Of a DNA stretch of 64,000 bases, positions 4,650 to 64,000 are shown piece after piece; within the stretch, counting starts at the first letter, position 1, and every line of letters begins with the position of its first letter. A model generated the notes under the pieces. It was not told the DNA's origin, ran no database searches, and saw nothing but the letters and a program-made list of their open reading frames with translations. The translations under genes were made by a program, and so were the position numbers. The stretch lies in assembly GCF_055900595.2 (NCBI RefSeq), contig NZ_CM148325.1, one strand, 5' to 3'.

Positions 4650-6053
4650 ATGTCTGACCATAATCCACTGACATTAAAACTGAATCTGCGGGAAAAAATC
4701 GCTTATGGCATGGGCGACGTCGGTTCGAATTTAATGCTTAGCATCGGCACTCTGTATCTCCTCAAATTTTATACCGATGAATTAGGGATGCCTGCTTACT
4801 ATGGCGGGATTATCTTTCTGGTGGCAAAATTCTTTACCGCGTTTACCGATATGCTCACCGGATTTTTACTCGACTCGCGGAAAAATATTGGGCCTAAAGG
4901 CAAATTTCGTCCCTTTATTTTATATGCAGCGGTTCCGGCGGCGTTAATTGCAACGCTCCAGTTTATCGCCACCACTTTTAGTTTGCCGATTAAAACGACG
5001 ATTGCCACCGCGCTGTTTATGATGTTTGGACTTTCATACAGTCTGATGAACTGCTCGTATGGCGCGATGATTCCAGCAATTACCAAAAACCCCAATGAGC
5101 GCGCGCAGCTTGCGGCTTACCGCCAGGGTGGTGCAACCATAGGGCTATTGATTTGTACCGTAGCATTTATTCCACTGCAGTCGCTTTTTTCTGACTCCAC
5201 TGTCGGTTATGCCTGCGCGGCACTGATGTTCTCCATTGGTGGCTTTATTTTTATGATGCTGTGCTACAGAGGCGTCAAAGAGCATTATGTGGACACGACG
5301 CCAACCGGACATAAAGCCAGTATTCTCAAATTTTTTTGCGCGATATTTCGTAATCCGCCATTGCTGGTTTTATGCATTGCTAACCTGTGTACCCTGGCGG
5401 CATTTAATATCAAACTGGCAATTCAGGTCTATTACACCCAGTATGTGCTGAATGATATTAATTTATTGTCGTGGATGGGATTCTTCAGTATGGGATGCAT
5501 CCTCATCGGCGTATTGCTGGTGCCATTAACTGTAAAATGTTTTGGTAAAAAACAGGTTTATTTAGCTGGCATGGTGCTGTGGGCGGTGGGGGATATCCTG
5601 AATTATTTCTGGGGCAGTAACTCTTTCACTTTCGTCATGTTCTCTTGTGTCGCCTTTTTTGGTACGGCCTTTGTGAACAGCCTGAACTGGGCGTTAGTTC
5701 CTGACACCGTAGATTACGGTGAATGGAAAACCGGTATTCGTGCCGAAGGTTCTGTTTATACTGGTTATACCTTCTTTCGTAAAATTTCTGCCGCACTTGC
5801 TGGCTTCTTGCCAGGCATTATGCTGACGCAAATCGGTTATGTTCCCAACATCGCGCAAAGCGATGCAACATTACAGGGTTTGCGTCAGCTCATTTTTATT
5901 TGGCCTTGTGCGCTGGCGATAATTGCTGCATTGACGATGGGATTCTTTTACACGCTCAATGAAAAACGTTTTGCGTTAATTATTGAGGACATCAACCAAC
6001 GTAAAAATAAAGAGATTGAGACAAAAGAAAAAACTGCTTCCGTAACGTTATAA
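4650..6053 (+). CDS. yihO: GPH-family sulfoquinovose transporter
   Basis: 467 aa from ATG at 4650 (MSDHNPL) with AAGGAG 6 nt upstream; the ORF track begins at an in-frame GTG at 4644. Confidence 0.85.
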   Translation: MSDHNPLTLKLNLREKIAYGMGDVGSNLMLSIGTLYLLKFYTDELGMPAYYGGIIFLVAKFFTAFTDMLTGFLLDSRKNIGPKGKFRPFILYAAVPAALIATLQFIATTFSLPIKTTIATALFMMFGLSYSLMNCSYGAMIPAITKNPNERAQLAAYRQGGATIGLLICTVAFIPLQSLFSDSTVGYACAALMFSIGGFIFMMLCYRGVKEHYVDTTPTGHKASILKFFCAIFRNPPLLVLCIANLCTLAAFNIKLAIQVYYTQYVLNDINLLSWMGFFSMGCILIGVLLVPLTVKCFGKKQVYLAGMVLWAVGDILNYFWGSNSFTFVMFSCVAFFGTAFVNSLNWALVPDTVDYGEWKTGIRAEGSVYTGYTFFRKISAALAGFLPGIMLTQIGYVPNIAQSDATLQGLRQLIFIWPCALAIIAALTMGFFYTLNEKRFALIIEDINQRKNKEIETKEKTASVTL

Positions 6054-7874: not shown

Positions 7875-7934
7875 ATGACATTTATTGGGAGAGAGTCATC
7901 TCTCCCATTATTTATCACAGAAAAGGAATTCTTC

Positions 7935-9786: not shown

Positions 9787-11017
9787 TGAATCGATTTATC
9801 AGCAATATATGTACAGTTACCCGCATAAGACCGCTTATCGGGAATTAAACAATATTGCTTTTGCGGATGTGAAATCGCGTATTTACGAGCATAAAACACA
9901 TCTCTATATTCATATGCCTTTTTGCCAGAGCCGCTGCGGGTTTTGTAATCTCTTTACCTGCACGGGGGCAGACAATGCCTTTATCGACAACTACATAGAA
10001 GCAATTATTATCCAGGCCCGGCAAATGCAACTTGCGCCTGTAGACTGGGCCAGTTTTACCATTGGCGGCGGTACGCCACTACTGCTTAATACCGGGCAAC
10101 TGTCACGGTTGTTTCGCGGGGTGTTTGACGAATTACAGGTCGATGCGCAGATTTTTAAGGCAATTGAAACATCGCCTTCCGATACCACCGCCGAAAAGGT
10201 CGCGTTATTGCGCCAGCTTGCGGTAAACCGCGTCAGTATTGGCATTCAGAGTTTTAACGATCTGGAACTTGCCACATTACACCGCCGCCATAGTGCGGAA
10301 AATGCCCATCGGGCGCTGGAGCTACTGCGCAGGGGTAATTTCCCGATAATCAATATTGATATTATTTACGGTATTCCTGGTCAAACAGCCGCAAGTTTAA
10401 TGGCGTCGCTTAATCAAGCATTAGATTATCAGCCTGACGAACTGTTTCTGTACCCGCTATATAACATGCCGCGTCAGCCGGATATGTATAGCCTCTATAT
10501 TGAAGCCCGCGATCGCTTATTGCATGAAGGTTATACGCAAACGTCAATGCGCCGTTTTGTGCGGGTGAATAATGATTCGGCGGCTGAAAGTTGTGGCTTT
10601 GAAAATTCGCTGGCGCTTGGCGCGGGCGGGCGCAGTTATCTTGGCAATTTACATTACTGCACGCCGTGGTCGCAAAACCAGCCCGCATCGCGGCAAATTG
10701 TCACGGATTTTATCGCCCGGCCAGATAAGACCCAGATTCACCACGGCTATGTACTTTCACAAGCAGAAATGAAGCGGCGTTTTATTATCAAGAATCTCTT
10801 TTTCTATAAGGGGCTTTCGTTACGGGATTATCAGCACCAGTTCTTCTCTGAGGTATTAAGCGATTTTCCCCTGCTGGGCGATTTCATCAAACAAGATTAC
10901 TGCCACCAGCAGGATAATCGTATTCTGCTCACCGCGCAGGGTTTAGCGCTTTCGGACCAGCTTGGCCCGCTGTTTATCTCCCCGGAAGTTCGCAGGCTGG
11001 AGACGCATAAACGATGA
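9779..11017 (+). CDS. HemN/HemW-like radical SAM protein
   Basis: 412-aa ORF with YIHMPFCQSRCGFC (C49-x3-C53-x2-C56) radical SAM motif in HemN-like context; start overlaps the upstream stop. Confidence 0.8.
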   Translation: MNNESIYQQYMYSYPHKTAYRELNNIAFADVKSRIYEHKTHLYIHMPFCQSRCGFCNLFTCTGADNAFIDNYIEAIIIQARQMQLAPVDWASFTIGGGTPLLLNTGQLSRLFRGVFDELQVDAQIFKAIETSPSDTTAEKVALLRQLAVNRVSIGIQSFNDLELATLHRRHSAENAHRALELLRRGNFPIINIDIIYGIPGQTAASLMASLNQALDYQPDELFLYPLYNMPRQPDMYSLYIEARDRLLHEGYTQTSMRRFVRVNNDSAAESCGFENSLALGAGGRSYLGNLHYCTPWSQNQPASRQIVTDFIARPDKTQIHHGYVLSQAEMKRRFIIKNLFFYKGLSLRDYQHQFFSEVLSDFPLLGDFIKQDYCHQQDNRILLTAQGLALSDQLGPLFISPEVRRLETHKR

Positions 11018-11871
11018 CGCTCAAGCAGATCCAGACGCTGATTTATCGCGGCGAGATAAAGTCGTGTAATTATCGCTGTGGTTATTGCCCTTTTCATAAA
11101 CAAGACCGCAATGATAAACAGCAGGATGAAGTGGCATTATGGCGCATGGTTGAACATTTACCGGCGCAGGGTTCACCATTAAATGTATTTATTACGCCCT
11201 ACGGCGAAGCATTGCGTTATCGTTATTATATGGCGGCGATGGCGGAAATCAGCCGCTATTCCCATGTGCAGGCGGTGGGTATTCAGACCAACGCCTCTTT
11301 TAATTTATCCACCTTAGTCGCGACTTTTCAGCACTCTCAGGGCGATTTAGCAAAGCTGCGGCTGTGGTGTTCGTTTCATCCTTCCCAGGCAAGTAAAGAA
11401 GTTTTCCTTAAACAGTTACTGGCAATTAAGGACACGGGGATTACCTGTTCTGTGGGGGCCGTCGCCAGCGTAGCCGACTATGACGAATTACAGTGGTTAC
11501 GCGCGCATCTTCCTCCCGATATCTATTTCTGGCTAAACGCCAATGAGCGCGATAAAAGGCCCACCAGCGACGAAAGAAATAGCCAGTTTCAGTTGCTGGA
11601 CCCGCTTTATTATCTGGAAACCAGCCTCTGGCCTGCCAATGTCGAGTTTTGTCTGGGCGGCAAAAAGAGCGTGTTTATGAATGCTGATGGCGATCTCTTC
11701 GCCTGTAATATCAGCAAAATTAAGATTGGCAATTTATATCAACAGCAACTTTCATCTCCGTCTTGTATGTCCAGGCACTGTCACTGTTATCTGGCTTATC
11801 ACCTGCGTGAGGATATTCCGGCCCTCTCACAATTTGATGCTGAACGCTGCTTTCGGATCTTCTCGTTATGA
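11014..11871 (+). CDS. Small radical SAM protein with C-terminal Cys/His cluster
   Basis: 285-aa ORF; CNYRCGYC (C18-x3-C22-x2-C25) near N-terminus; C231, C251, C256, C258 near C-terminus; ATGA overlap with upstream stop. Confidence 0.75.
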   Translation: MTLKQIQTLIYRGEIKSCNYRCGYCPFHKQDRNDKQQDEVALWRMVEHLPAQGSPLNVFITPYGEALRYRYYMAAMAEISRYSHVQAVGIQTNASFNLSTLVATFQHSQGDLAKLRLWCSFHPSQASKEVFLKQLLAIKDTGITCSVGAVASVADYDELQWLRAHLPPDIYFWLNANERDKRPTSDERNSQFQLLDPLYYLETSLWPANVEFCLGGKKSVFMNADGDLFACNISKIKIGNLYQQQLSSPSCMSRHCHCYLAYHLREDIPALSQFDAERCFRIFSL

Positions 11872-12563
11872 TCTGGCGGTTAATCGCGCTCGATTTAGAC
11901 GGCACATTGCTGAACAGCAAGAAGATGATTTCCCCTGCGTCTGTTTCGGCACTGCAAAGCGCACAACAGGCAGGTGTGAAAATTATCCTCGCCACCGGAC
12001 GTTCGCACAGCGAAGCCCTGCCTTATTACCAACAATTGCAGTTAACCGAGCCGATGATTTGCTGTAACGGCAGCTATCTTTATCATCCGCGCCAGCGGCA
12101 AATATTGCGTCCGCTGGCGCTTGATATCCACAAGGTGGAAAGGCTACGACTCTGGTTTTCACAACAAATATTGCAGCCAAATATTTATACGTACGATGAT
12201 TTTGTTTTGCAGATTAGCCTGATACACCGCAAGGCTTCGTTATTGCGCCAGACAGAGGAATTTGCCCGACAAGAATTATCGCTGGCCTGTAGCTGGTCCT
12301 GGCATCATCAACTGGATATTACACAGGTGGGGTGTGAGAAAGGCAAAAGTCTGGCCTGGTATGCCCGACAGCAAAATATCGTGCTGGATGAAATCATCGC
12401 CTTTGGCGATAACGATAATGATGCGGGGATGCTGCGGATGGTAGGCAAAGGGATTGCGATGGGCAATGGCAGTTCGCTGGCAAAAGTCAGTGCTGACCGC
12501 GTTATTGGTCACAACAACACAGATGCTATTGCGGATTTTCTTGATGCGCAGGGTTTCAGATGA
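11868..12563 (+). CDS. HAD-superfamily Cof-type phosphatase
   Basis: 231-aa ORF with N-terminal ALDLDGTLL motif (HAD motif I) and GDNDND near the C-terminus; ATGA overlap with upstream stop. Confidence 0.8.
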   Translation: MIWRLIALDLDGTLLNSKKMISPASVSALQSAQQAGVKIILATGRSHSEALPYYQQLQLTEPMICCNGSYLYHPRQRQILRPLALDIHKVERLRLWFSQQILQPNIYTYDDFVLQISLIHRKASLLRQTEEFARQELSLACSWSWHHQLDITQVGCEKGKSLAWYARQQNIVLDEIIAFGDNDNDAGMLRMVGKGIAMGNGSSLAKVSADRVIGHNNTDAIADFLDAQGFR

Positions 12564-45867: not shown

Positions 45868-45912
45868 GCGCTTTCTCTGTCGGATCGATAAATAGGGCAA
45901 AACAAACGCGCA

Positions 45913-50527: not shown

Positions 50528-52770
<2,243 letters not shown>

Positions 52771-52783
52771 TTCCGGTCTCCTG

Positions 52784-53539
52784 TCAGAACTTATAACCAC
52801 GATGCAGCGCCACAACCCCTGCCGTCAGGTTGTAATAGTCGACACTTTCGAATCCAGCATCCTGCATCATAGCTTTCAGGGTGTCCTGATCGGGATGCAT
52901 GCGGATAGATTCAGCAAGATAACGGTAGCTGTCAGCGTCGTTCGCGACCAGTGAGCCAATACGCGGCAGCACATGGAAGGAGTAAGCGTCATAGGCCTTA
53001 CTTAACGGCTCGATAATCGGCTTCGAGAACTCAAGCACCAGCAGTCGGCCGCCAGGTTTCAGAACGCGATACATTGAACGCAGAGCTTTATCTTTGTCAG
53101 TGACGTTACGCAGACCAAACGAAATGGTGATGCAATCAAAGGTGTTATCCGGGAACGGCAGCGCCTCAGCGTTCGCCTGAACATACTCAACGTTGCCAAT
53201 CACACCAATATTACGCAGCTTCTCGCGGCCCATTTTGAGCATGGATTCATTGATATCAGCAAGGACCACTTTGCCAGTTTCACCCACCAGGCGGGAGAAT
53301 TTCGCTGTCAGGTCGCCAGTACCGCCTGCCAGATCCAGCACGGTCTGCCCACGGCGTACGCCGCTGCAATCAATCGTGAAGCGTTTCCACAAACGATGTA
53401 TGCCAAAAGACATCAAATCATTCATGACATCGTATTTCGATGCCACGGAATGGAAAACGTGAGCGACCATATCCGCTTTTTGTTCCTTCGCGACGGTCTG
53501 AAAACCAAAGTGCGTCGTTTCTTGTGACTTATCCACCAT
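52784..53539 (-). CDS. ubiE: Ubiquinone/menaquinone C-methyltransferase
   Basis: 251-aa ORF with SAM-binding LDLAGGTGD. Confidence 0.95.
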
Positions 53540-53633
53540 CTCAATGCCTGCTCATCAAAAAATTGTTCCAGAAGTGTAACAGATTGGGCGTCGATGCCCT
53601 AGATTTCTACCCGGCTTAACTACCCCCAATGGG

Positions 53634-55061
53634 CTAGCGCGACTGCTGATTATATTCATCATCGCGTTGATAAGCTTCATCATTCGGCTGCTCCGGAACC
53701 GACCGCAGTCGATACTCTTCATCCTGGCTCACCGCTTGTTCAGCCAAATCCGGATTAATCTCGCGTTTAATTTCTACCCCTAAACCGCGAAACGCTTCTG
53801 CTTGCGCCAGCACATTTCCGCGACCTGAAGAGAGTTTTTTCATTGCCTGACGATAGTTGTCCTGTGCTTTGTCCAGACTTTGACCAATCGCGGACATATC
53901 ATCGACAAACAAGCGCATTTTGTCGTACAACTTGCTGGCGCGATCGGCTATTTTCTGGGCGTTACGACTTTGATGCTCATAGCGCCAGAGGTTGGCGATA
54001 GTGCGCAGCGCCACCAGCAGCGTGGTCGGGCTAACCAGCATGATATTGTTTTTCAACGCTTCGGTGATCAGCTCCGGCTGGCGGTCAAGCGCCAGTAAAA
54101 AAGCGGGTTCAACGGGAATAAACATCAGCACGTAATCCAGGGTTCGCAGCCCCGGCAGCTGTTGATAATCTTTGCGTCCCAGCAAACGGATATGGTTACG
54201 CACCGACGCGATATGTTCCTGTAGCGCGCTTTCGCGGGTGTAGTCGTCTTCTGCGTTGAAATAGCGTTCATAGGCGACCAGCGTCATTTTTGCGTCGATC
54301 ACCACAACTTTGCCCTGCGGCAGCCGCACGATGACATCCGGCTGCATCCGCGAGCGGGCGTCATTTTCGATGCTGACCTGGGTTTCATATTCATACCCTT
54401 CACGCAGACCGGAAGCCTCCAGCACACGCGTCAATACTACCTCGCCCCAGTTGCCCTGGGTTTTATTGTCGCCTTTCAGCGCACGCGTCAGGTTGATCGC
54501 TTCCTGGGCCATTTGCGCGTTGAGCTGCTGGAGATTGCGTATTTCGTGAGTCAGGGTATGGCGTTCTTGTGCTTCTTTACCGAAACTGTCCTGAACCTGA
54601 CGACGAAAACCGTCCAGTTGTTCACGTAGTGGCGACAACAGGCTGTTCAGACTCTGACGGTTTTGCTCATCAACCCGGCGATTGCTGTGCTCGAAAATAC
54701 GGTTGGCGAGGTTTTCAAACTGCTCACTGAGGCGCTGTTCGCTGTTGATCATTTGGCGAATTTTATCGTCAGCATGTTGCTGTACGGCCTCCATTCGCGT
54801 GGTGACCTCACGCAGATCCGCCTCCAGCGAGGTGTTAATGCTTTGCAGACTGCGCACTTCATTATTGAGTAACTCGCACTCAGCACGCCAATGTTCGCTT
54901 TGGGTAATTTGTTGTTTTGCCGCACTTAACTCCGCGACCATCTCTTCACGTTCAGCGAATTGCTCGGCTTTTTGCTGCGCATGCTGATAACTGGCAATCA
55001 GCCAGCCAATCGCCACGCTCACCAACGCAATAACTGCGTAAACCATGATTGAGATATCCAC
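53634..55061 (-). CDS. rmuC: DNA recombination protein RmuC
   Basis: 475 aa from a GTG start preceded by GGAGG; N-terminal TM helix and coiled coil. Confidence 0.85.
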   Translation of the reverse strand: MDISIMVYAVIALVSVAIGWLIASYQHAQQKAEQFAEREEMVAELSAAKQQITQSEHWRAECELLNNEVRSLQSINTSLEADLREVTTRMEAVQQHADDKIRQMINSEQRLSEQFENLANRIFEHSNRRVDEQNRQSLNSLLSPLREQLDGFRRQVQDSFGKEAQERHTLTHEIRNLQQLNAQMAQEAINLTRALKGDNKTQGNWGEVVLTRVLEASGLREGYEYETQVSIENDARSRMQPDVIVRLPQGKVVVIDAKMTLVAYERYFNAEDDYTRESALQEHIASVRNHIRLLGRKDYQQLPGLRTLDYVLMFIPVEPAFLLALDRQPELITEALKNNIMLVSPTTLLVALRTIANLWRYEHQSRNAQKIADRASKLYDKMRLFVDDMSAIGQSLDKAQDNYRQAMKKLSSGRGNVLAQAEAFRGLGVEIKREINPDLAEQAVSQDEEYRLRSVPEQPNDEAYQRDDEYNQQSR

Positions 55062-55179
55062 AACGCCTCCAGCCTCATTACTTACCCGCACAAAATAGAA
55101 TTGTGCTGTACAAACGTCCAGTTTGAAAGAAGTTTCCTGCGAGGCGCTACGCAAAACGATCCTTAATTTTTATTATTTT

Positions 55180-55215
55180 ATCCCACAATATGAGACGTAG
55201 TTTATATTGTGGGAT
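55180..55215. promoter_or_regulatory. Perfect 12-bp inverted repeat (candidate IclR-type operator)
   Basis: atcccacaatat (55180-55191) and atattgtgggat (55204-55215) are exact reverse complements separated by 12 bp, about 60 bp upstream of the IclR-family gene. Confidence 0.5.
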
Positions 55216-55276
55216 ATATCACCTTTTCCCCACGTCATTATGTGGAACACTTCAGCAATATCATCAGGAGAAACGT

Positions 55277-56044
55277 ATGGCAGATACCTCTTCAACCACC
55301 GCTGGCGCACAAACGTTATTACGCGGGCTGGCGGTTCTTAATGCTGTTTATAACGGCTGCCATGACCTGAAAAGTATCGGCGAGTTCACCGGCACGACCC
55401 GGAGCACAACCCATCGTTTAGTCACCGTTCTGGTGGAACAACGCTACCTGCGCCACGTCCCAACGCAGGGCTACCAACTGGGCGCCAAACTGATCGAATT
55501 CGGTGCCAGAGCACTGGAAAGCACCTCGCTGTACGAAGTTGCGCTGCCCGTTTTGCAGCGTCTGGCCCGTTACACCCTGGACACCGTGCATCTGGGGATC
55601 GTTGAAGGCGGCGAAGTGCTGTATCTGGAGAAGATCAACAGTCAGCGTGGGCTGGAAATGCGCTCACGCCCAGGCCATCGCATGCCACTGGCAATCACCG
55701 GCATCGGCAAGGCATTGATCCTCAACCGAACAGAAGAAGAGTGGCGCACGCTGTTTAAGACCTGTGGTGATGAAACAAAACTGGGCACATTTATTCAGAA
55801 CATGCGTCGTTATGCCGCCAGTGGTTTTGCTTTTGATCTGGAAGAGAACGAGCCGACTATCCGTTGCGTTGCAGCGCCGGTTTACAACGCCCGGGATGAA
55901 ATTGTGGCGGCTATTTCTGTCGCCAGTACCACTACGTATATGTCACTGGCGCGTCTGGAAGAACTGGCACCTTACGTCAAATCCTGTGCAGAAGAGATAT
56001 CCGCTGAACTGGGCTGGGGTAAGCACGTCCACAAAAATAAATAA
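55277..56044 (+). CDS. IclR-family transcriptional regulator
   Basis: 255 aa from MADTSS with CAGGAG upstream; N-terminal HTH and C-terminal effector domain. Confidence 0.85.
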   Translation: MADTSSTTAGAQTLLRGLAVLNAVYNGCHDLKSIGEFTGTTRSTTHRLVTVLVEQRYLRHVPTQGYQLGAKLIEFGARALESTSLYEVALPVLQRLARYTLDTVHLGIVEGGEVLYLEKINSQRGLEMRSRPGHRMPLAITGIGKALILNRTEEEWRTLFKTCGDETKLGTFIQNMRRYAASGFAFDLEENEPTIRCVAAPVYNARDEIVAAISVASTTTYMSLARLEELAPYVKSCAEEISAELGWGKHVHKNK

Positions 56045-56067
56045 ACCATGACTAAAGGAAACGGCTA

Positions 56068-57072
56068 ATGTCGGGAAACACCTCATTTATTGCCCTGGAC
56101 TGGGGAACGTCATCGCTTCGGGCATGGCGTTTTGGCGACTCACCCAATCCACAAGAAAAACGTGAATTCCCGTGGGGGATCATGAAATTACCCTCCCAGG
56201 CAGCAACACGTGAGGACGCTTTCCACGATACGTTTTTACGTGTCTGCGGCGACTGGCTGGCACAATCCCAATGCCCGGTTCTGGCTTGCGGCATGATCGG
56301 CAGTGCGCAAGGGTGGCAACCCGCAGCTTATTTACCTTGCCCGGTCACTCTCGAGGGTCTGGCAAAGCAGTTGACGCCTGTTATCTACCAGCAGCAGACA
56401 ATGCTGCACATCATTCCCGGCGTGATTAAAGAAGGTGAAATGCCCGAAGTGATGCGTGGCGAAGAGACACAAATCTTCGGTGCTATCTCGATGGAACCGG
56501 CCCTGCAAAACGCGATCCGCCAGGGTATGCCTGTGCTGATTGGCTTACCTGGCACACATGCGAAATGGGCGGTAGTTGAAAACAACACCATTACCGATTT
56601 CCGAACCTTTATGACAGGCGAGTTATTTGATGTTTTATCCCGCCATTCGATTCTCGGTGCCACCATGCGTTCGGGAGATGAACCGCACTGGGATGCCTTC
56701 ACCCATGGGCTGAAATCAGCACAAGAGCATCATCAGACCGGATTATTATCGACGCTGTTTTCGACCCGTTCGCGCCTGCTGACCAGTAATCTTACGCCGT
56801 CCTCGCAGGGGGATTACCTTTCAGGATTACTGATAGGCCATGAATTATGCGGTCTGGCATCCAGTTTGCTACGTGATTTACCCGCCACAACACCGATCGC
56901 CTTAATCGGTAGCGCCACTCTGAACAGCCGCTATTCACAAGCATTCAGCCACGTTTTTCCCGACAGACAGCTACACGCCATTCCTAATGCCACTGAACAG
57001 GGGTTATGGCGAATCGCCCACGCTGCCGGGCTACTCTCCACCAACGCCAGGGAATGTACTCATGCCATTTAA
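56068..57072 (+). CDS. 2-dehydro-3-deoxygalactonokinase (DgoK)-like sugar-acid kinase
   Basis: 334-aa ORF; N-terminal FIALDWGTSSLRAW resembles the DgoK family start. Confidence 0.7.
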   Translation: MSGNTSFIALDWGTSSLRAWRFGDSPNPQEKREFPWGIMKLPSQAATREDAFHDTFLRVCGDWLAQSQCPVLACGMIGSAQGWQPAAYLPCPVTLEGLAKQLTPVIYQQQTMLHIIPGVIKEGEMPEVMRGEETQIFGAISMEPALQNAIRQGMPVLIGLPGTHAKWAVVENNTITDFRTFMTGELFDVLSRHSILGATMRSGDEPHWDAFTHGLKSAQEHHQTGLLSTLFSTRSRLLTSNLTPSSQGDYLSGLLIGHELCGLASSLLRDLPATTPIALIGSATLNSRYSQAFSHVFPDRQLHAIPNATEQGLWRIAHAAGLLSTNARECTHAI

Positions 57073-57691
57073 TACGCTTTTGCAAAAAACCGGGTTAGTC
57101 GCCATTTTACGCGGCGTGAAACCGGATGAGATTGTCGCCATCGGTGAAAAGCTGTATGCCGCTGGATTTCGCCTGATTGAGATTCCCATGAACTCGCCGG
57201 AGCCGTTGCAAAGTATCAGTTTACTGCGCGACGCCCTGCCTAAGGACTGCCTGGTCGGAGCCGGAACTGTGCTTTCGGTGGAGCAAGTCGTCGCGGTTAA
57301 AGAGGCTGGAGGCCAGATTATCGTAATGCCGCATTGCGATACTGCGGTGATCCGTCGTGCCCGTGCGCTGGGTATGTATTGTGCGCCTGGCGTCGCTACG
57401 CCCACCGAAGCTTTTGCTGCCATTGAACATGGCGCCAATGCCATCAAGCTGTTCCCGGCTGAACAAATTACGCCTGAAGTCACCAAAGCCTGGCGTGCGG
57501 TTATTCCACAATCCGTTCCGATGTTACCGGTTGGCGGTATCACTCCAGACACAATGGCGCGTTATCTGAGCCACGGCGCAAACGGCTTTGGCCTCGGTTC
57601 TGCGCTATATCGCCCCGGCATGACGCCAGAGCAAGTCTATGAAAATGCAGTACTGTTTATGAACGCATGGAACAATTTAAATAGCAAATAA
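57062..57691 (+). CDS. 2-dehydro-3-deoxy-6-phosphogalactonate/KDPG-type aldolase (DgoA/Eda-like)
   Basis: 209 aa from MPFNTLLQKTGLVAILRG; start overlaps the kinase gene stop. Confidence 0.75.
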   Translation: MPFNTLLQKTGLVAILRGVKPDEIVAIGEKLYAAGFRLIEIPMNSPEPLQSISLLRDALPKDCLVGAGTVLSVEQVVAVKEAGGQIIVMPHCDTAVIRRARALGMYCAPGVATPTEAFAAIEHGANAIKLFPAEQITPEVTKAWRAVIPQSVPMLPVGGITPDTMARYLSHGANGFGLGSALYRPGMTPEQVYENAVLFMNAWNNLNSK

Positions 57692-57715
57692 CTGATAAAT
57701 AAGGATATAAAAGCA

Positions 57716-58690
57716 ATGATAAAACATCTTACCTTACCGAAAAAAATGGCTGCAATGGTACTTCTTGCCGGCGCTGCCCTCAGCACTGCGCCTGTGCAGG
57801 CGGCCTCCTGGCCAACCAAACAGATCGAGTTAGTCGTACCCTACGCGGCCGGAGGCGGTACGGATCTGGTTGCCCGTGCCTTTGCTGATGCCGCCAAAAA
57901 CCATTTGCCCGTCAGCATCGGGGTTATCAATAAACCTGGCGGTGGCGGCGCTATCGGCCTGAGTGAAATCGCCGCTGCCCGCCCTAACGGTTACAAAATG
58001 GGTTTAGGCACGGTTGAACTGACCACCCTTCCCAGTCTCGGAATGGTGCGTTTTAAAACCAGCGACTTTAAACCCATTGCCCGTCTGAATGCGGATCCGG
58101 CTGCTATCACCGTCCGTGCCGATGCACCGTGGAATAGCTATGAAGAATTTATGACTTACGCCAAAGCGAATCCCGGAAAAGTACGCATTGGTAACTCAGG
58201 CACCGGAGCAATCTGGCATCTGGCGGCAGCTGCACTGGAAGACAAAACGGGCGTGAAGTTTTCTCATGTCCCATATGACGGCGCAGCCCCTGCCATTACA
58301 GGCCTGTTAGGCGGGCATATTGAAGCGGTTTCCGTAAGCCCAGGTGAAGTTATCAATCATGTGAAAGGCGGCAAGCTGAAGACACTGGTAGTGATGGCGG
58401 ATGAACATATGAAAACCATGCCTGACGTACCGACGTTAAAAGAGAAAGGCGTTGATCTCTCCATCGGCACCTGGCGCGGCCTGATTGTGTCGCAAAAAAC
58501 GCCGCAGGATGTGGTGGATGTTCTGGCAAAGGCAGCAAAAGAGACGGCTGAAGAGCCTGCATTCCAGGATGCGCTGCAAAAGTTGAATCTCAACTATGCA
58601 TGGCTTGATGGTGCCAGCTTCCAGACCCAAATCAACGAGCAGGAAAAGTACTTTGACGAGCTGCTGACTCGCCTGGGCCTGAAAAAATAA
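57716..58690 (+). CDS. Tripartite tricarboxylate transporter substrate-binding protein (TctC/Bug family)
   Basis: 324-aa ORF with signal peptide; Bug-family-like. Confidence 0.8.
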   Translation: MIKHLTLPKKMAAMVLLAGAALSTAPVQAASWPTKQIELVVPYAAGGGTDLVARAFADAAKNHLPVSIGVINKPGGGGAIGLSEIAAARPNGYKMGLGTVELTTLPSLGMVRFKTSDFKPIARLNADPAAITVRADAPWNSYEEFMTYAKANPGKVRIGNSGTGAIWHLAAAALEDKTGVKFSHVPYDGAAPAITGLLGGHIEAVSVSPGEVINHVKGGKLKTLVVMADEHMKTMPDVPTLKEKGVDLSIGTWRGLIVSQKTPQDVVDVLAKAAKETAEEPAFQDALQKLNLNYAWLDGASFQTQINEQEKYFDELLTRLGLKK

Positions 58691-58706
58691 TCCCGAGGTA
58701 CGGTCG

Positions 58707-59213
58707 ATGAACACAAAACAGTCTGTTGCTCAACTCGCCGTACCGCACCGCAAGCGCCTTTCATCCACTGTGGTGGTGGCGCTGTTACTTTGTGTGGTTG
58801 CTGGCGCGGTGATAATTAATGCCGCTGATTTTCCAGCAACTGCCATTGAAACGGATCCCGGTGCAAGTGCCTTCCCTACTTTCTATGCCTGCGCTCTGAT
58901 TGTGCTCGCTGTCTTACTTGTGATACGCGATCTTTTGCTGGCAAAACCAGTCCCTTGCGCCAACGCACAGGAAAAACCGGCATTCAGGAAAACGGCAACA
59001 GGAATTGCGGCAACCGCGTTTTATATCGTGGCAATGAGCTACTGCGGTTATCTCATTACTACTCCTGTTTTCCTCATCGTCATTATGGCATTGATGGGCT
59101 ACAGGCGATGGGTACTCACACCGGGTATTGCGCTGCTGTTAACGGCAATCCTCTGGTTGCTGTTTGTCGAAGCGTTACAGGTGCCATTGCCTGTCGGCAC
59201 ATTTTTCGAATAA
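58707..59213 (+). CDS. Tripartite tricarboxylate transporter small membrane subunit (TctB-like)
   Basis: 168-aa ORF with four predicted TM segments, positioned between TctC-like and TctA-like genes. Confidence 0.7.
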   Translation: MNTKQSVAQLAVPHRKRLSSTVVVALLLCVVAGAVIINAADFPATAIETDPGASAFPTFYACALIVLAVLLVIRDLLLAKPVPCANAQEKPAFRKTATGIAATAFYIVAMSYCGYLITTPVFLIVIMALMGYRRWVLTPGIALLLTAILWLLFVEALQVPLPVGTFFE

Positions 59214-59225
59214 CAGGGGCCTGCA

Positions 59226-60716
59226 ATGTTTGAAAGTGAACTTTTAACTCAGGGGTTTTCGACATTACTCAGTAATCCTCAGGCGCTGCTGTTTGCCACG
59301 TTTGGAGTGATGCTGGGTATTATGATTGGCGCTCTGCCTGGCCTGACAGCGACCATGGGTGTGGCGATTTTGCTGCCTTTCACCTACGGCATGGAGCCTG
59401 TTTCTGGCTTGTTGATGATTTGCGGTGTCTTTTTTGGTGGTGTGTATGGTGGTTCTATCACCGCAATTTTGCTCAAAATTCCCGGTACGCCTGCCGCCGC
59501 TGCCACCGCCATTGACGGATATGAGCTGACGAAGCAGGGAAAAGCCGGGCTGGCGTTAAGTGCCGCCACGTTCTCTTCTTTTAGCGGTGGAACGCTCAGC
59601 ATTATCGTATTGATGTTTCTCTCTCCGGTACTTGCCAGTTGGGCGTTGAAATTTAGTGCCTCGGAGTCCTTCGCCCTGGCAACCTTCGGACTGAGCATTA
59701 TTGCCAGTATTTCCGGTGAGTCACTGATTAAAGGGCTGATTGCCGGGGTTGGCGGATTGCTTATCGCAACGATAGGCCTTGATCCAATGGGCGGTTTTCC
59801 ACGCTTTACAGGTGGATTTGTGGAGCTGATGAATGTGCCATTTATCCCGGTGATGATTGGTTTATTTGCTGCTTCAGAAGCATTCCGCTCTATGGAGCAA
59901 AACCAGCAAATTCGTCAGGGGGCGAAGGTGGCTATCGGCAGTCTGTTACTGCCCTGGCAAACACTACGCCGCATCGCATTAACCATTTTGCGCTCATCAG
60001 GATTAGGGGTTTTTATCGGCATGATCCCCGGTGCGGGGGCAGATATTGCAGCTTTTGTTGCCTATAACGAAACTCGTCGTTTCAGTAAGACGCCTGAAAA
60101 CTTTGGTAAGGGTGAGATTAAGGCGGTGGCCTCCTGTGAGGCAGGCGCGAATGGCTGCACCGGTGGCGCATTGTTACCTATGCTGACGTTGGGGATCCCA
60201 GGCGATGCGGTAACTGCCATCATGCTGGGCGCGTTAACGTTACAAGGGATGCAGCCAGGCCCACTTATGTTTACCGACCACGGCGATATGGTTTATACGC
60301 TGTTTGTCGGCATGATCTTTTGTTACTTCATGCTGCTAGTTCTTGGACTGCTCTCTTTGAAAGTCATCGGTAACGTGGTGAAGATCCCCGGCAATATTCT
60401 CACGCCGATGATCCTCGCACTTTGTGTGGTCGGGACTTATGCGCTGAACAATAGCCTGTTTGATGTTGGCATTATGCTGATTGCAGGCGTGGTGGGCTAT
60501 TTCATGCAAAAAGGGGGGTATCCGGCATCACCCGTAGTGCTGGCATTGATTATGGGGCCAATGGCGGAAAGTAATTTTCGCCGTGCGCTGTCGCTTTCTG
60601 GTGGGTCACTCGACTTTCTGTATACCCGACCGATAACCCTGGCATTGCTGACACTGGCAGCCTTTACGCTACTGACGCCAATAATACGCAAAATTATGCG
60701 CTTACGGCGTCAGTAA
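59226..60716 (+). CDS. Tripartite tricarboxylate transporter large permease (TctA-like)
   Basis: 496-aa polytopic ORF. Confidence 0.8.
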   Translation: MFESELLTQGFSTLLSNPQALLFATFGVMLGIMIGALPGLTATMGVAILLPFTYGMEPVSGLLMICGVFFGGVYGGSITAILLKIPGTPAAAATAIDGYELTKQGKAGLALSAATFSSFSGGTLSIIVLMFLSPVLASWALKFSASESFALATFGLSIIASISGESLIKGLIAGVGGLLIATIGLDPMGGFPRFTGGFVELMNVPFIPVMIGLFAASEAFRSMEQNQQIRQGAKVAIGSLLLPWQTLRRIALTILRSSGLGVFIGMIPGAGADIAAFVAYNETRRFSKTPENFGKGEIKAVASCEAGANGCTGGALLPMLTLGIPGDAVTAIMLGALTLQGMQPGPLMFTDHGDMVYTLFVGMIFCYFMLLVLGLLSLKVIGNVVKIPGNILTPMILALCVVGTYALNNSLFDVGIMLIAGVVGYFMQKGGYPASPVVLALIMGPMAESNFRRALSLSGGSLDFLYTRPITLALLTLAAFTLLTPIIRKIMRLRRQ

Positions 60717-60770
60717 TTGATATCGCTCCCCGACGTTGGGGAGTATGAGACTGATGACAAACGCTAAATT

Positions 60771-60871
60771 GCCTGATGCGCTGCGCTTATCAGGCCTACC
60801 ACAGAAATGCAATATATTGAATTTGCATGCTTTTGTAGGCCGGATAAGGCGATCACGCCGCATCCGGCATG
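60771..60871. repeat. REP elements
   Basis: gcctgatgcgctgcgcttatcaggcctac and gtaggccggataaggcgatcacgccgcatccggcatg. Confidence 0.7.
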
Positions 60872-60901
60872 AACAAAGCACACGTTAACAACAATCGGAA
60901 T

Positions 60902-60928
60902 GCTCCCCTAAGCCAGGGAGCGTTTTTT
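60902..60928 (+). terminator. Rho-independent terminator, + strand orientation
   Basis: gctccc ... gggagc hairpin followed by TTTTTT; the T-tract overlaps the udp stop codon. Confidence 0.6.
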
Positions 60929-61691
60929 ATTTCAGCAGACGACGCGCCGCTTCCACCACGATTTTCACCGCATGGCTTTCGGTTTGTTTCATCGTCTCAG
61001 CATTCGGGATCTCTTGTTGGGTACGATTGACGATAACGCCCGCCACCATACCGGCACGAAGGCCCTGGCTTGCACACATGGTCAGCAGGGTTGCAGATTC
61101 CATTTCATAGTTCATTACGCCCATCGCCTGCCACTCTTCCATAGAACCTTTAAAGTGACGAACTACGCGACCAGAGTAAGTATCGTAACGTTCCTGACCT
61201 GGGTAGAAGGTATCAGAAGAAGCCGTCACGCCAACGTGAGTCGTCGCGCCGATGGATTTCGCAGCCTCAACCAGCGCGGTCGTACATTCGAAATCAGCGA
61301 CAGCCGGGAATTCCAGCGGTGCGAAGTGCAGGCTCGCGCCATCCAGACGAACAGACGCCGTGGTAACCAGGACATCGCCAACATTAATATGCGGCTGAAT
61401 AGCGCCCGTTGTACCGATACGCAGGAAGGTGCGAATGCCCAGCTGTGCCAGCTCTTCAACTGCAATAGAGGTAGACGGGCCGCCGATACCGGTAGAGCAG
61501 ACGATAACAGGTTTACCATCCAGCTCTGCACGCCAGGTGGTGAATTCGCGGTGAGATGCCAGCTTAACCGGCTTATCCATCAGCGCGGCGATCTTTTCCA
61601 CACGATCCGGGTCGCCAGGGACGATGGCAAGCGTAGCCCCTTGTAAATCGTTTTTAGTGAGGCCGAGATGAAAAACATCAGACTTGGACAT
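60927..61691 (-). CDS. udp: Uridine phosphorylase
   Basis: 253 aa from [28 protein letters not shown]. Confidence 0.95.
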
Positions 61692-61765
61692 ATACAACTC
61701 CTCTGTGAATCGGTTTAGTCAGAAGAAGCAAAAAGACACTTTACCGAAGGGTTTAACATTTTTTC

Positions 61766-61832
61766 GTGACACTCATCACCTTGATGCAAATGCGTTGCAT
61801 AAATTTACCCAGCAAAAGTGATGCGAATCACA
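61766..61832 (-). promoter_or_regulatory. udp promoter CRP-CytR-CRP array
   Basis: Two CRP-like sites (gtgacactcatcac at 61766-61779; gtgatgcgaatcaca at 61818-61832) flank a tgcaaatgcgttgca CytR-like repeat at 61784-61799. Confidence 0.65.
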
Positions 61833-61952
61833 TAAATCACTCTTCATTCTGCATGACTGCATAAAAGATGAGCCGATTCAGGCAATGTGATTTGTTGCAT
61901 GCTGACTATAGTTAACATTGCGCAACATTTTTATAAGGGTACGGAGAATACC

Positions 61953-62768
61953 ATGGCAACAACACAACAATCTGGATTTGCACCTGCTGCATCACCTCTC
62001 GCTTCGACCATCGTTCAGACCCCGGATGACGCGATTGTAGCAGGCATCACCTCTATCCCTTCACAAGGGGATAACATGCCTGCTTACCATGCCAGACCAA
62101 AGCAGAGCGATGGCCTACTACCAGTGGTCATTGTAGTGCAGGAAATTTTTGGCGTGCATGAACATATCCGCGATATTTGTCGCCGTCTGGCGCTGGAGGG
62201 GTATCTGGCTATCGCACCTGAACTTTACTTCCGCGAAGGCGATCCGAATGATTTTGCCGATATCCCTACGCTGCTTAGCGGTCTGGTAGCAAAAGTGCCT
62301 GACTCGCAGGTGCTGGCCGATCTCGATCATGTCGCCAGTTGGGCGTCACGCAACGGCGGCGATGTTCATCGCTTAATGATCACCGGATTTTGCTGGGGTG
62401 GGCGCATCACCTGGCTGTATGCTGCGCATAATCCACAACTGAAAGCAGCGGTGGCATGGTACGGCAAATTAACCGGCGATAAGACGCTGAATTCACCGAA
62501 ACAACCTGTTGATATCGCAACCGATCTTAACGCTCCGGTTCTCGGCTTATATGGCGGCCAGGATAACAGCATTCCGCAGGAGAGCGTTGAAACCATGCGC
62601 CAGGCGCTGCGGGCTGCTAATGCGAAAGCAGAGATTATCGTCTACCCGGATGCCGGGCATGCATTCAACGCCGATTATCGCCCGAGCTATCATGCCGAAT
62701 CTGCGAAAGATGGCTGGCAGCGAATGCTGGAGTGGTTCAGGCTGTATGGTGGGAAGAAGTCGCTGTAA
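61953..62768 (+). CDS. ysgA: Dienelactone hydrolase family protein
   Basis: 271 aa from MATTQQSG with GGAG upstream. The ORF track's upstream extension is rejected. Confidence 0.8.
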
Positions 62769-62775
62769 TGAGAAA

Positions 62776-62805
62776 AGACCGGGTGGTATTACCACCCGGT
62801 TTGGA
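62776..62805. terminator. Bidirectional terminator between ysgA and metE
   Basis: accgggtggtattaccacccggt hairpin flanked by A/T-rich stretches on both sides. Confidence 0.7.
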
Positions 62806-62807
62806 TT

Positions 62808-64000
62808 TTACCCCCGACGCAAATTCTGCGCCGCCTGCACCATGTTCGCCAGTGCCGCGCGGGTTTCTGGCCAGCCGCGCGTTTTCAGACCACAGTCCGG
62901 GTTGACCCACAGACGCTCTGCCGGAATGCGTTTTGCCGCTTTCTTCAGCAGGGACTCAATCCATTCCACGCTCGGTACGTTTGGCGAGTGAATGTCATAG
63001 ACGCCAGGACCGATTTCATTCGGATAATCAAACTCTTCAAACGACTCCAGCAACTCCATGTCGGAACGCGAGGTTTCGATTGTGATGACGTCAGCATCCA
63101 GCGCCGCAATCGAATCCATGATGTCGTTGAACTCGCAGTAACACATGTGAGTGTGGATTTGCGTGTCATCTTTCGCTACGGCAGCGTTGATACGGAAAGC
63201 CTCCACGCCCCACTGAAGATAGGCATCCCAGTCGCTGCGACGCAGCGGTAAACCTTCGCGTAGCGCCGGTTCATCAATCTGGATGATGCCAATTCCAGCC
63301 GCTTCCAGATCGGCCACTTCATCACGCAGCGCCAGCGCAATTTGTTTGGCGATGGTTTCACGGCTGACATCTTCACGCGGGAACGACCAGCAGAGAATGG
63401 TCACCGGACCAGTCAGCATCCCTTTCACCGGTTTGTCGGTCAGCGATTGCGCATACTTCGCCCACTCCACAGTAATCGGTGCCGGGCGGCTAACGTCACC
63501 AATGACAATCGGTGGCTTCACGCAGCGGGAACCGTAGCTCTGTACCCAACCGTTTTGCGTAAAGACAAAGCCATCCAGGTGCTCGCCAAAGTATTCCACC
63601 ATGTCATTACGCTCGGCCTCACCATGCACCAGCACATCCAGACCCAGACGTTCCTGCTCAACAATGGCCTGCTTGATATGTTCTGCAATGCCCGTACGAT
63701 AGTTGTTGGCGTCGAGATTACCCTTTTTGAAATCCAGACGCAGGGTACGGATTTCTGTGGTTTGCGGGAAAGAGCCAATCGTGGTGGTCGGCCAGGCTGG
63801 CAGTTTAAAACGCGCACGCTGGGCTTCAGCACGCACTTCATAAACGTTCGCACGCTGACTGTCCTGGGCGGTGATCGCCGACAGACGCTTTTCTACTGCC
63901 GGATTATGTACACGAGTAGAGTGACGACGCGCCTGAATCGGAGCGCTCCACCCTGCCAGAGCTGCCGTATCACCACTGTTCAGCGCATCGCGCAGCAATG
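62808..64000 (-). CDS. metE: Cobalamin-independent methionine synthase, C-terminal part (5' end beyond window)
   Basis: - strand frame ends ...[15 protein letters not shown]; the frame stays open to the window edge. Confidence 0.9.

What the first reader, a model, noticed from the sequence alone, without database searches (positions are those of the whole stretch)
57062..57072. Kinase and aldolase genes overlap by 11 nt
The aldolase ATG at 57062 lies inside the last codons of the kinase gene (stop at 57072), implying coupled translation of the two catabolic enzymes, as in dgoK-dgoA-type operons.
Basis: seen in the sequence. Interest (0 to 1): 0.25.

Follow-up and report, generated by a model that had tools for sequence, protein, structure and literature searches.

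The report
Ordinary 11-base kinase–aldolase gene overlap
Two neighbouring sugar-acid breakdown genes in an optional E. coli operon really do overlap by 11 bases, but this is a common, already-annotated arrangement that may tie their translation together only modestly.

Summary
The kinase ORF (56068-57072) ends in TAA at 57070-57072. The aldolase ATG at 57062 lies 11 nt inside it, in another frame. RefSeq annotates the same coordinates. The ATG is the right start. It gives a protein matching the full KDPGal-aldolase model from its second position. It is conserved in Buttiauxella, Phytobacter and a metagenome relative. It alone has a Shine-Dalgarno-like AGGGAA (57049-57054). The alternative starts (ATG 56987, TTG 57080) have no such motif and are not conserved.

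The genes are a second DgoK/DgoA-like pair (35% and 46% identical to the K-12 proteins). They sit in a six-gene accessory operon, IclR-kinase-aldolase-TctCBA, inserted between rmuC and udp in about 27% of complete E. coli genomes.

The canonical dgoK-dgoA pair overlaps by 17 nt, but at a non-homologous position. Across about 80 related loci the junction ranges from a 47-nt spacer to an 11-nt overlap. In Phytobacter a 1-nt indel turns the overlap into TGAATG.

Translational coupling is plausible but untested. The -11 spacing lies outside the -8..+6 range where reinitiation is efficient, and the junction RNA is unstructured.

Verdict: real, ordinary, already annotated, low interest. The dehydratase-less operon itself is the more interesting lead.

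The parts
55179..55216 (.). Perfect 13-nt inverted repeat TATCCCACAATAT-N12-ATATTGTGGGATA upstream of the regulator gene. It is a putative operator of the IclR-type regulator and lies in the operon's likely promoter region.
   Evidence: Related TCCCA..ATAT / ATATTATGGGAT motifs occur at the same place in Buttiauxella (L005), L007 and L006. Its function is inferred, not shown.
55277..56044 (+). IclR-family transcriptional regulator, the first gene of the operon.
   Evidence: Pfam HTH_IclR plus IclR_C. It is nearest to the BhcR and KdgR models but scores below their cutoffs.
56068..57072 (+). DgoK-like 2-dehydro-3-deoxygalactonokinase (334 aa). It carries a tail of about a dozen residues (LLSTNARECTHAI) beyond the point where canonical DgoK ends.
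   Evidence: Pfam DGOK at E 1.9e-89 over the full length. PDB relatives 3r1x and 3t69. It is 35% identical to K-12 DgoK. The tail is shown in the alignment.
57049..57054 (+). Shine-Dalgarno-like AGGGAA, 7 nt upstream of the aldolase ATG. It is encoded inside the kinase tail (codons Arg-Glu).
   Evidence: The anti-SD duplex is -5.1 kcal/mol here, against +1.0 to +1.9 for the alternative starts. GGGAA or GGGGAA is conserved in E. coli alleles, Buttiauxella, L007 and Phytobacter.
57062..57072 (+). The 11-nt overlap ATGCCATTTAA. It holds the aldolase codons Met-Pro-Phe-(A)sn and the kinase codons (c)AT-GCC-ATT-TAA.
   Evidence: It is identical in four E. coli alleles. Buttiauxella and L007 have ATGCAATTTAA.
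57062..57691 (+). DgoA-like 2-dehydro-3-deoxy-6-phosphogalactonate aldolase (209 aa).
   Evidence: NCBIfam NF006600 at 322.9 bits (cutoff 207), with protein residues 4-207 matching profile positions 5-208 of 210. The best PDB hit is E. coli DgoA, 2v81. It is 46% identical to K-12 DgoA.
57716..58690 (+). TctC/Bug-family periplasmic substrate-binding protein.
   Evidence: Pfam TctC at E 2.6e-54. PGAP annotation.
58707..59213 (+). TctB small membrane subunit.
   Evidence: Pfam TctB at E 1.4e-20.
59226..60716 (+). TctA large permease subunit.
   Evidence: Pfam TctA at E 1.6e-151. dN/dS is 0.01 against the ATCC 8739 allele.
60897..60926 (+). Terminator-like hairpin (11 pairs followed by a T run) between tctA and the convergent udp gene. 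It is the likely end of the operon.
   Evidence: Only weak consensus matches (5-8-pair stems) were found elsewhere, none across the kinase-aldolase junction.

Best explanation
This is a genuine, ordinary same-strand gene overlap inside one transcript.

The aldolase starts at ATG 57062. Its ribosome-binding signals (AGGGAA at 57049-57054 and the ATG) are written into a poorly conserved C-terminal tail of about a dozen residues on the kinase. The kinase frame then runs on until the first out-of-frame stop, which is supplied by the aldolase's own codons 3-4 (TTT AAT, giving TAA).

Ribosomes finishing the kinase terminate 8 nt downstream of the aldolase start codon, within the ribosome footprint. 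Aldolase synthesis is therefore most likely a mixture of two routes. One is SD-directed initiation on an unstructured site. The other is some reinitiation, or local ribosome hand-over, from the kinase. That amounts to partial, not obligatory, coupling.

A plausible benefit is that the aldolase is made whenever the kinase is, so that the phosphorylated intermediate does not accumulate.

Shown here: the anatomy, the start codon, conservation, and the absence of a strong terminator or a masking hairpin. Inferred: the degree of coupling and its benefit.
For: Anatomy.

Start codon:
- The N-terminus fits the full-length family model, with protein 4-207 matching profile 5-208 of 210.
- The N-terminus aligns within one residue of 13 homologues.
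- The ATG is conserved in every related locus. TTG 57080 becomes CTG in L007 and is absent in Phytobacter. ATG 56987 has no counterpart outside E. coli.
- Only ATG 57062 has an SD (-5.1 kcal/mol). This is similar to the other genes of the operon, at -5.7 to -7.4.
- Independent gene callers (PGAP and the callers behind) choose the same start.

Operon: gaps of 12-24 nt separate the six genes. No strong terminator lies before the hairpin at 60897, and none crosses the junction.

Kinase tail: the amino acids vary (ARECTHAI, TGKIFHAI, TGETSHAI, TREL) while the GGGAA motif and ATG are kept.

Functional genes: dN/dS is 0.25 for the kinase and 0.06 for the aldolase between two E. coli alleles.

Literature: coupling by termination-reinitiation is documented for short overlaps in E. 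coli (PMC6728339, PMC10666635). Phase-1 overlaps (-8, -11, -14, -17) are the commoner class of longer overlaps (PMC10666635).
Against: - No experiment or ribosome-profiling data were available, so coupling is not shown.
- The -11 spacing lies outside the -8..+6 window described as conducive to reinitiation.
- Increasing overlap lowers coupling efficiency.
- The junction RNA is less structured than 198 of 200 shuffles. The 'unmasking' route to coupling therefore has nothing to unmask, and free ribosomes could load unaided.
- The exact overlap is evolutionarily labile. Phytobacter has TGAATG through a 1-nt indel. Pseudomonas relatives mostly have 1- or 19-nt spacers. This argues that the 11 nt as such is not under strong selection.
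- An SD of this strength occurs at 15% of positions inside the kinase gene.
Confidence: 0.62

Rival explanations
1. The overlap is real but functionally neutral. The aldolase is translated independently from its own SD. The 11-nt overlap is a by-product of frame drift, simply where the kinase frame happens to meet a stop, with no meaningful coupling.
For: - A 1-nt indel converts the -11 overlap to 0 spacing in Phytobacter without loss of either gene.
- The junction varies from +47 to -17 across the family.
- The initiation region is unstructured and has its own SD.
- The review states that coupling declines with overlap beyond -4.
Against: - The stop lies only 8 nt past the start codon, so terminating ribosomes physically cover the initiation site. 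Some interaction, positive or negative, is hard to avoid.
- Every variant in the enterobacterial island clade keeps the junction tight (0 or -11) and never opens a spacer.
- The SD is only moderate.
Confidence: 0.3
2. The aldolase actually starts downstream at TTG 57080 (or GTG 57116), so the genes do not overlap.
For: TTG 57080 is in frame and lies 8 nt after the kinase stop. It would still leave the conserved AILRG strand intact. Buttiauxella also has TTG at that position.
Against: - No SD is present (+1.9 kcal/mol).
- The codon is CTG in L007 and TTA in Phytobacter.
- The protein would begin at profile position 8 of the family model, whereas the ATG start begins at position 2.
- All gene callers choose the ATG.
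Confidence: 0.04
3. The aldolase starts at the upstream in-frame ATG 56987, giving an 86-nt overlap and a 25-residue N-terminal extension.
For: The aldolase frame is open from 56987 in E. coli.
Against: - No SD is present (+1.2 kcal/mol).
- In Buttiauxella, L007 and Phytobacter the extension is closed, or has no start codon upstream.
- No homologue carries such an extension.
- It exceeds the family model length.
Confidence: 0.02
4. The overlap is a programmed +1 frameshift site (AUU UAA U) that makes a kinase-aldolase fusion protein. The aldolase frame is +1 relative to the kinase frame.
For: The frame relationship is correct and a stop codon sits in the A site, as in prfB (sequence only). Kinase-aldolase fusion proteins exist as a family (NF041633 appears among the weaker hits).
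Against: - tRNA-Ile on AUU cannot re-pair well on UUU (established knowledge, not tested here).
- The SD-like motif is 15 nt upstream of the AUU codon rather than the 3 nt seen in prfB.
- Phytobacter has the two genes in the same frame, separated by TGA, so the feature is not conserved.
- The aldolase has its own conserved ATG and SD.
Confidence: 0.01

Closest known systems
Canonical E. coli dgoK-dgoA junction in the dgoRKADT D-galactonate operon
   Same: The two enzyme families and the gene order are the same. Both have an out-of-frame same-strand overlap of the 'phase 1' series, with the aldolase SD and ATG embedded in the kinase 3' end: 17 nt in K-12, and also in the window's matching genome.
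   Different: - The proteins are only 35% (kinase) and 46% (aldolase) identical.
- The overlap lies at a different, non-homologous place. K-12 dgoA starts inside the conserved ...IAHAVAN end of DgoK. Here the kinase carries an extra tail of about a dozen residues and the ATG lies in that tail.
- The SD is strong in K-12 (AAGGAG) and moderate here (AGGGAA).
- The operon partners differ: IclR plus TctCBA and no dehydratase here, against GntR-type DgoR, DgoD and the MFS transporter DgoT.
Pseudomonas, Herbaspirillum and Dyella dgoK-dgoA-dgoD(-dgoT) operons
   Same: These are the closest sequence relatives of the aldolase outside the enterobacterial island (about 60% identity). The kinase-aldolase order is the same and the junctions are tight.
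   Different: Most have spacers of 1 nt or 18-19 nt, with a GGAGG SD. Only a few overlap, by 4 or 8 nt. They carry the dehydratase and an MFS transporter.
Short-overlap gene pairs coupled by termination-reinitiation (ATGA at -4, TGATG or TAATG at -1, and -8)
   Same: The pair is co-directional and on one transcript. The stop and start codons lie within one ribosome footprint.
   Different: The -11 spacing is outside the -8..+6 window shown or argued to support efficient reinitiation. Spacings outside that window are at least ten times rarer than -4 (PMC10666635). Such overlaps are enriched among subunits of heteromeric complexes. To my knowledge DgoK and DgoA are not known to form one.
KdgR regulon of E. 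coli (kdgT permease, kdgK kinase, eda aldolase) for 2-keto-3-deoxygluconate
   Same: [quoted passage not shown] The regulator here hits the KdgR model at E 8e-36 but below its cutoff.
   Different: The genes here form one operon. The enzymes are of the galacto-type (DgoK/DgoA), and the transporter is a tripartite TctCBA system. The substrate is not known. The comparison rests on gene content plus my own knowledge of the Kdg regulon.

Membership tests
DgoK, 2-dehydro-3-deoxygalactonokinase (Pfam PF05035) | Full-length match to the DGOK profile above the gathering score | tested here: met
   299.8 bits against a cutoff of 25. Residues 11-316 cover profile positions 1-281 of 281.
DgoK, 2-dehydro-3-deoxygalactonokinase (Pfam PF05035) | Sequence homology to solved DgoK structures | tested here: met
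   3r1x at E 1.1e-36 and 3t69 at E 2.3e-35, both nearly full length.
DgoK, 2-dehydro-3-deoxygalactonokinase (Pfam PF05035) | ATP-dependent phosphorylation of 2-dehydro-3-deoxy-D-galactonate | not testable with these tools
   This needs an enzyme assay. At 35% identity to K-12 DgoK, substrate specificity remains open.
DgoA, KDPGal aldolase (NCBIfam NF006600; class I KDPG/KHG aldolase fold PF01081) | Score above the curated cutoff of the KDPGal-aldolase subfamily model, and better than the KDPG (Eda) models | tested here: met
   NF006600 scores 322.9 bits against a cutoff of 207. The Eda model TIGR01182 scores 134.7, below its cutoff of 156. The best PDB hit is E. coli DgoA, 2v81.
DgoA, KDPGal aldolase (NCBIfam NF006600; class I KDPG/KHG aldolase fold PF01081) | Conserved Schiff-base lysine and catalytic glutamate, and Val rather than Thr before the GG motif | tested here: met
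   E40, K129 and V157 are invariant columns shared with K-12 DgoA. Assigning these columns to catalytic roles rests on my recollection of the DgoA structure paper and was not tested here.
Canonical dgoRKADT D-galactonate operon | D-galactonate dehydratase DgoD encoded next to dgoA | tested here: not met
   There is no DgoD homologue in the island or within 5 kb in E. coli, Buttiauxella, Phytobacter or L007. It is present in the Pseudomonas relatives. The same genome has dgoD elsewhere.
Canonical dgoRKADT D-galactonate operon | GntR-family regulator DgoR and MFS transporter DgoT | tested here: not met
   The regulator is IclR-family and the transporter is TctCBA.
Canonical dgoRKADT D-galactonate operon | dgoK immediately upstream of dgoA on the same strand with a tight junction | tested here: met
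Translationally coupled gene pair (termination-reinitiation type) | Co-directional genes on one transcript, with no terminator or promoter between them | tested here: met
   The genes overlap. The consensus scan finds no promoter or terminator across the junction, and only a weak 5-pair stem at 56800 inside the kinase. This is a prediction only. No transcript data were available.
Translationally coupled gene pair (termination-reinitiation type) | Stop-start spacing within the window shown to support efficient reinitiation (about -8 to +6 nt) | tested here: not met
   The spacing is -11. The window comes from PMC10666635. The review reports declining efficiency with longer overlaps.
Translationally coupled gene pair (termination-reinitiation type) | Downstream translation depends on translation of the upstream gene | not testable with these tools
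   This needs reporter constructs with premature stops, or ribosome profiling.
Tripartite tricarboxylate transporter (TTT) | TctC, TctB and TctA components encoded together | tested here: met
   PF03401, PF07331 and PF01970 all score far above their gathering thresholds, on three consecutive genes.

The most novel reading that the evidence does not exclude
The overlapping pair may be the enzymatic core of an uncharacterised, self-contained salvage operon for free 2-keto-3-deoxy-galactonate or a close 2-keto-3-deoxy sugar acid. It would be a galacto-type counterpart of kdgT-kdgK-eda. Uptake would be through a tripartite TctCBA system, regulated by an IclR-type, KdgR-like repressor binding the inverted repeat at 55179-55216. 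The operon is carried by about a quarter of E. coli strains and by Buttiauxella and Phytobacter at the same chromosomal site. In that setting the tight kinase-aldolase junction would be selected so that the aldolase never lags behind the kinase, avoiding build-up of the phosphorylated intermediate.
Probability: 0.3. Interest if true: 0.35.

Novelty: already known. Interest (0 to 1): 0.1.

Why it matters
For the finding itself, very little. It confirms that the public annotation of the aldolase start is sound and that the two genes are expressed from one compact junction, as in thousands of bacterial operons. It is a useful small example of how labile such junctions are. A single-base indel between the SD and the ATG switches the pair between an 11-nt overlap and a TGAATG abutment, and two paralogous kinase-aldolase pairs in one genome overlap at non-homologous positions. 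The surrounding operon is of more practical interest. It is a strain-variable, purifying-selected catabolic module with no dehydratase and a TTT-type transporter, and no paper describing it turned up in the searchable library. It could explain strain differences in sugar-acid use in the gut.

Tried and rejected
1. An ancestral 'cATGc' start context shared with K-12 dgoA. I first thought the His-Ala codons hosting the ATG were homologous in both paralogues. The alignments show that the K-12 ATG lies in the conserved IAHA motif, whereas the window's ATG lies about a dozen residues further on, in an extra tail. Rejected.

2. A hairpin masking the aldolase ribosome-binding site (the unfolding model of coupling). 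The MFE is -14.9 kcal/mol against a shuffle mean of -20.6, z = +1.9. There is no such structure.

3. Alternative starts ATG 56987, TTG 57080 and GTG 57116. Rejected on SD energy, conservation and family-model coverage.

4. A programmed +1 frameshift producing a fusion protein. Rejected on sequence grounds and lack of conservation.

5. Known structured RNAs around the operon. Rfam found none at gathering thresholds over 54900-61100.

6. Literature on this island. Searches combining TTT, DgoK, IclR, rmuC, udp and KDGal found no paper describing it.

7. My first script for kinase stop positions extended from the tblastn HSP ends and gave absurd 'overlaps' of 116-621 nt for seven loci. I recomputed with two other methods. 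Two loci (L054, L067) remain ambiguous between methods.

8. I assumed that the strain E200086 record was collinear with the window from base 1. It is offset by 52 nt and differs near 45.9 kb. Coordinates were re-derived from the window itself.

Full report
**Observation**

The sequence reads ...CCAGGGAATGTACTCATGCCATTTAATACG....
- The kinase ORF runs from 56068 to 57072 and ends in TAA at 57070-57072.
- The aldolase frame carries ATG at 57062 and runs to 57691.
- The shared stretch 57062-57072 is 11 nt, and the two genes are in different frames.
- PGAP annotation of matching E. coli genomes gives the same ends: L001 3969..4973 and 4963..5592. Searches agree.
- L001 differs from window 52100-63900 at 2 bases.

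**What the genes are**

- The upstream protein is a full-length member of Pfam DGOK (E 1.9e-89). It is related to the solved 2-oxo-3-deoxygalactonate kinases 3r1x and 3t69.
- The downstream protein exceeds the curated cutoff of the KDPGal-aldolase model NF006600 (322.9 bits against 207). It falls below the cutoff of the Eda model. Its best solved relative is E. coli DgoA, 2v81.
- They are paralogues of the canonical enzymes, not copies. Identity to K-12 DgoK is 35%, and to K-12 DgoA 46%.
- The genome that matches the window also carries the canonical dgoRKADT operon.

**Is 57062 the true start?**

Four lines of evidence agree.
1. With this start, protein residues 4-207 align to positions 5-208 of the 210-position family model. 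The N-terminus lines up within a residue of 13 homologues, including Pseudomonas, Collimonas and K-12 DgoA.
2. The ATG is conserved in all related loci. TTG 57080 is CTG in L007 and absent in Phytobacter. The upstream in-frame ATG 56987 has no counterpart outside E. coli.
3. Only ATG 57062 is preceded by an SD-like motif, AGGGAA at 57049-57054 with 7-nt spacing. Its anti-SD duplex is -5.1 kcal/mol. The alternatives give +1.0 to +1.9, and the other operon genes give -5.7 to -7.4. This motif is only moderately informative, because 15% of positions within the kinase gene score as well.
4. PGAP and the gene callers behind the metagenome and NCBI records choose the homologous start.

**Context**

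The pair sits in a six-gene, same-strand cluster:
- IclR regulator, 55277-56044
- kinase
- aldolase
- TctC, 57716-58690
- TctB, 58707-59213
- TctA, 59226-60716

Gaps between the genes are 12-24 nt. A terminator-like hairpin lies at 60897-60926. There is no predicted promoter or terminator across the kinase-aldolase junction.

Compared with K-12, homology stops at 55156 and 60929. About 5.8 kb replaces 43 bp of the udp-rmuC spacer. The cluster is present in 1,452-1,456 of 5,426 complete E. coli genomes.

Its G+C content (52.6%) is close to the host's. Its synonymous divergence from the ATCC 8739 allele (dS 0.07-0.18) resembles that of flanking udp (0.106). All six genes show purifying selection, with dN/dS of 0.01-0.25. 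The same six genes lie next to udp in Buttiauxella warmboldiae, Phytobacter massiliensis and two metagenome contigs.

**Comparison of junctions**

- K-12 dgoK and dgoA overlap by 17 nt, and so does the canonical pair in the window's matching genome.
- The two overlaps are not homologous. K-12 dgoA starts inside the conserved ...IAHAVAN end of DgoK. The island kinase continues for about a dozen more residues (…LLSTNARECTHAI), and the ATG lies in that tail.
- The tail varies in amino acids between genera (ARECTHAI, TGKIFHAI, TGETSHAI, TREL) while the GGGAA motif and ATG are kept. The tail therefore appears to be shaped more by the aldolase's translation signals than by kinase function.
- Buttiauxella and L007 keep the 11-nt overlap (ATGCAATTTAA).
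- Phytobacter has one base fewer between the SD and the ATG. This shifts the kinase frame onto a TGA that abuts the ATG (TGAATG, spacing 0), even though the TAA-containing TTTAA is still present.
- Among about 78 species-level loci recovered by the single genome scan (mostly Pseudomonas, so not independent), the junction is:
  - an 18-19-nt spacer in about 37
  - a 1-nt spacer in 28
  - 12-47-nt spacers in about 9
  - an overlap of 4 or 8 nt in only 2-4, depending on the method

All of those relatives carry dgoD, and most carry dgoT. Tightness is a family habit. The 11-nt overlap is a lineage-specific and easily changed detail.

**Is it more than chance, and does it imply coupling?**

- Overlaps are common. 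In this window 8 of roughly 38 co-directional neighbour pairs overlap, by 1, 4, 4, 4, 8, 8, 11 and 19 nt.
- In the literature, -4, -1 and -8 dominate. Spacings outside -8..+6 are at least ten times rarer than -4. Among the longer overlaps, the phase containing -8, -11, -14 and -17 is several-fold commoner (PMC10666635).
- Experiments summarised in a 2025 review show that coupling is most efficient between -4 and +3. It falls faster with increasing overlap than with increasing spacing, and vanishes by about -25 (PMC12548453).
- The junction RNA here is less structured than 198 of 200 shuffles. There is no masked ribosome-binding site to unmask, and free ribosomes could initiate.

I therefore rate partial coupling as the most likely state (about 0.6). 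This would be some reinitiation or hand-over by ribosomes that terminate 8 nt past the start, on top of SD-directed initiation. A neutral, uncoupled overlap is the main rival (about 0.3). Neither can be decided with these tools.

**Known or new**

The overlap, the start codon and the product names are all in RefSeq. The phenomenon is textbook. I file it as already known and of low interest.

The operon around it is less ordinary. It lacks a dehydratase, uses a TctCBA transporter and has a KdgR-like IclR regulator, preceded by a perfect 13-nt inverted repeat at 55179-55216 that is conserved in outline in other genera. By gene content it looks like a salvage route for a free 2-keto-3-deoxy sugar acid such as KDGal. 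That would be analogous to kdgT-kdgK-eda, an analogy drawn from my own knowledge.

KDGal arises in galactose, galacturonate and red-algal sugar catabolism. A review reports that E. coli can consume L-KDGal when transport is induced (PMC11219438). A TTT system specific for uronate oligosaccharides has also been described (PMC13390454). I found no paper on this E. coli island. This reading is a hypothesis and has not been tested.

Noticed in passing
window 55157-60928: The kinase-aldolase pair belongs to a 5.8-kb accessory insertion (IclR-DgoK-like-DgoA-like-TctC-TctB-TctA) between rmuC and udp. It is absent from K-12 and present in about 27% of complete E. coli genomes. It sits at the same site in Buttiauxella and next to udp in Phytobacter. 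It has no dehydratase gene, and its substrate is unknown.
   Followed up: partly
window 55179-55216: A perfect 13-nt inverted repeat, TATCCCACAATAT-N12-ATATTGTGGGATA, lies about 60 nt upstream of the IclR gene. Similar TCCCA...ATAT / ATATTATGGGAT motifs occur in the orthologous spacers of other genera. It is probably the regulator's operator.
   Followed up: partly
window 60717-60926: The 210-nt spacer between tctA and udp contains REP/BIME-like palindromic units (for example GCCTGATGCGCTGCGCTTATCAGGCCTAC and GCCGGATAAGGCG...CGCCGCATCCGGC). The ATCC 8739 allele has only a 33-nt gap there.
   Followed up: no
window 56900-57250: The window carries a minority allele of the island. Only 18 of 1,456 carrier genomes are at least 99% identical across the junction, and 1,437 are 95-99% identical (mostly about 96%). 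One copy is recorded on a plasmid.
   Followed up: no
window 7026-12563: A second accessory cluster lies between ompL and typA. It has six same-strand genes annotated as the STM4015, STM4014, STM4013, STM4012 and STM4011 families (including two radical-SAM proteins) plus a HAD hydrolase. They are chained by 8-, 8-, 4- and 4-nt overlaps. The STM4015-family ORF is intact here but frameshifted in strain E200086.
   Followed up: no
window 45875-45912 (fre-ubiD junction): The window and the otherwise near-identical strain E200086 differ by an indel of about 50 nt here. In E200086 fre and ubiD are annotated as overlapping by 4 nt. In the window they are separated.
   Followed up: no
protein P0002 (ENA contig, 763 nt): This aldolase homologue has a Pseudomonas-like first half and an E. 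coli-island-like second half. It is probably a chimeric metagenome assembly rather than a natural recombinant.
   Followed up: no
E. coli collection: About 400 of the 5,426 complete E. coli genomes lack a near-identical canonical dgoK-dgoA-dgoD stretch. Whether these overlap with the island carriers could not be tabulated with the tools.
   Followed up: no
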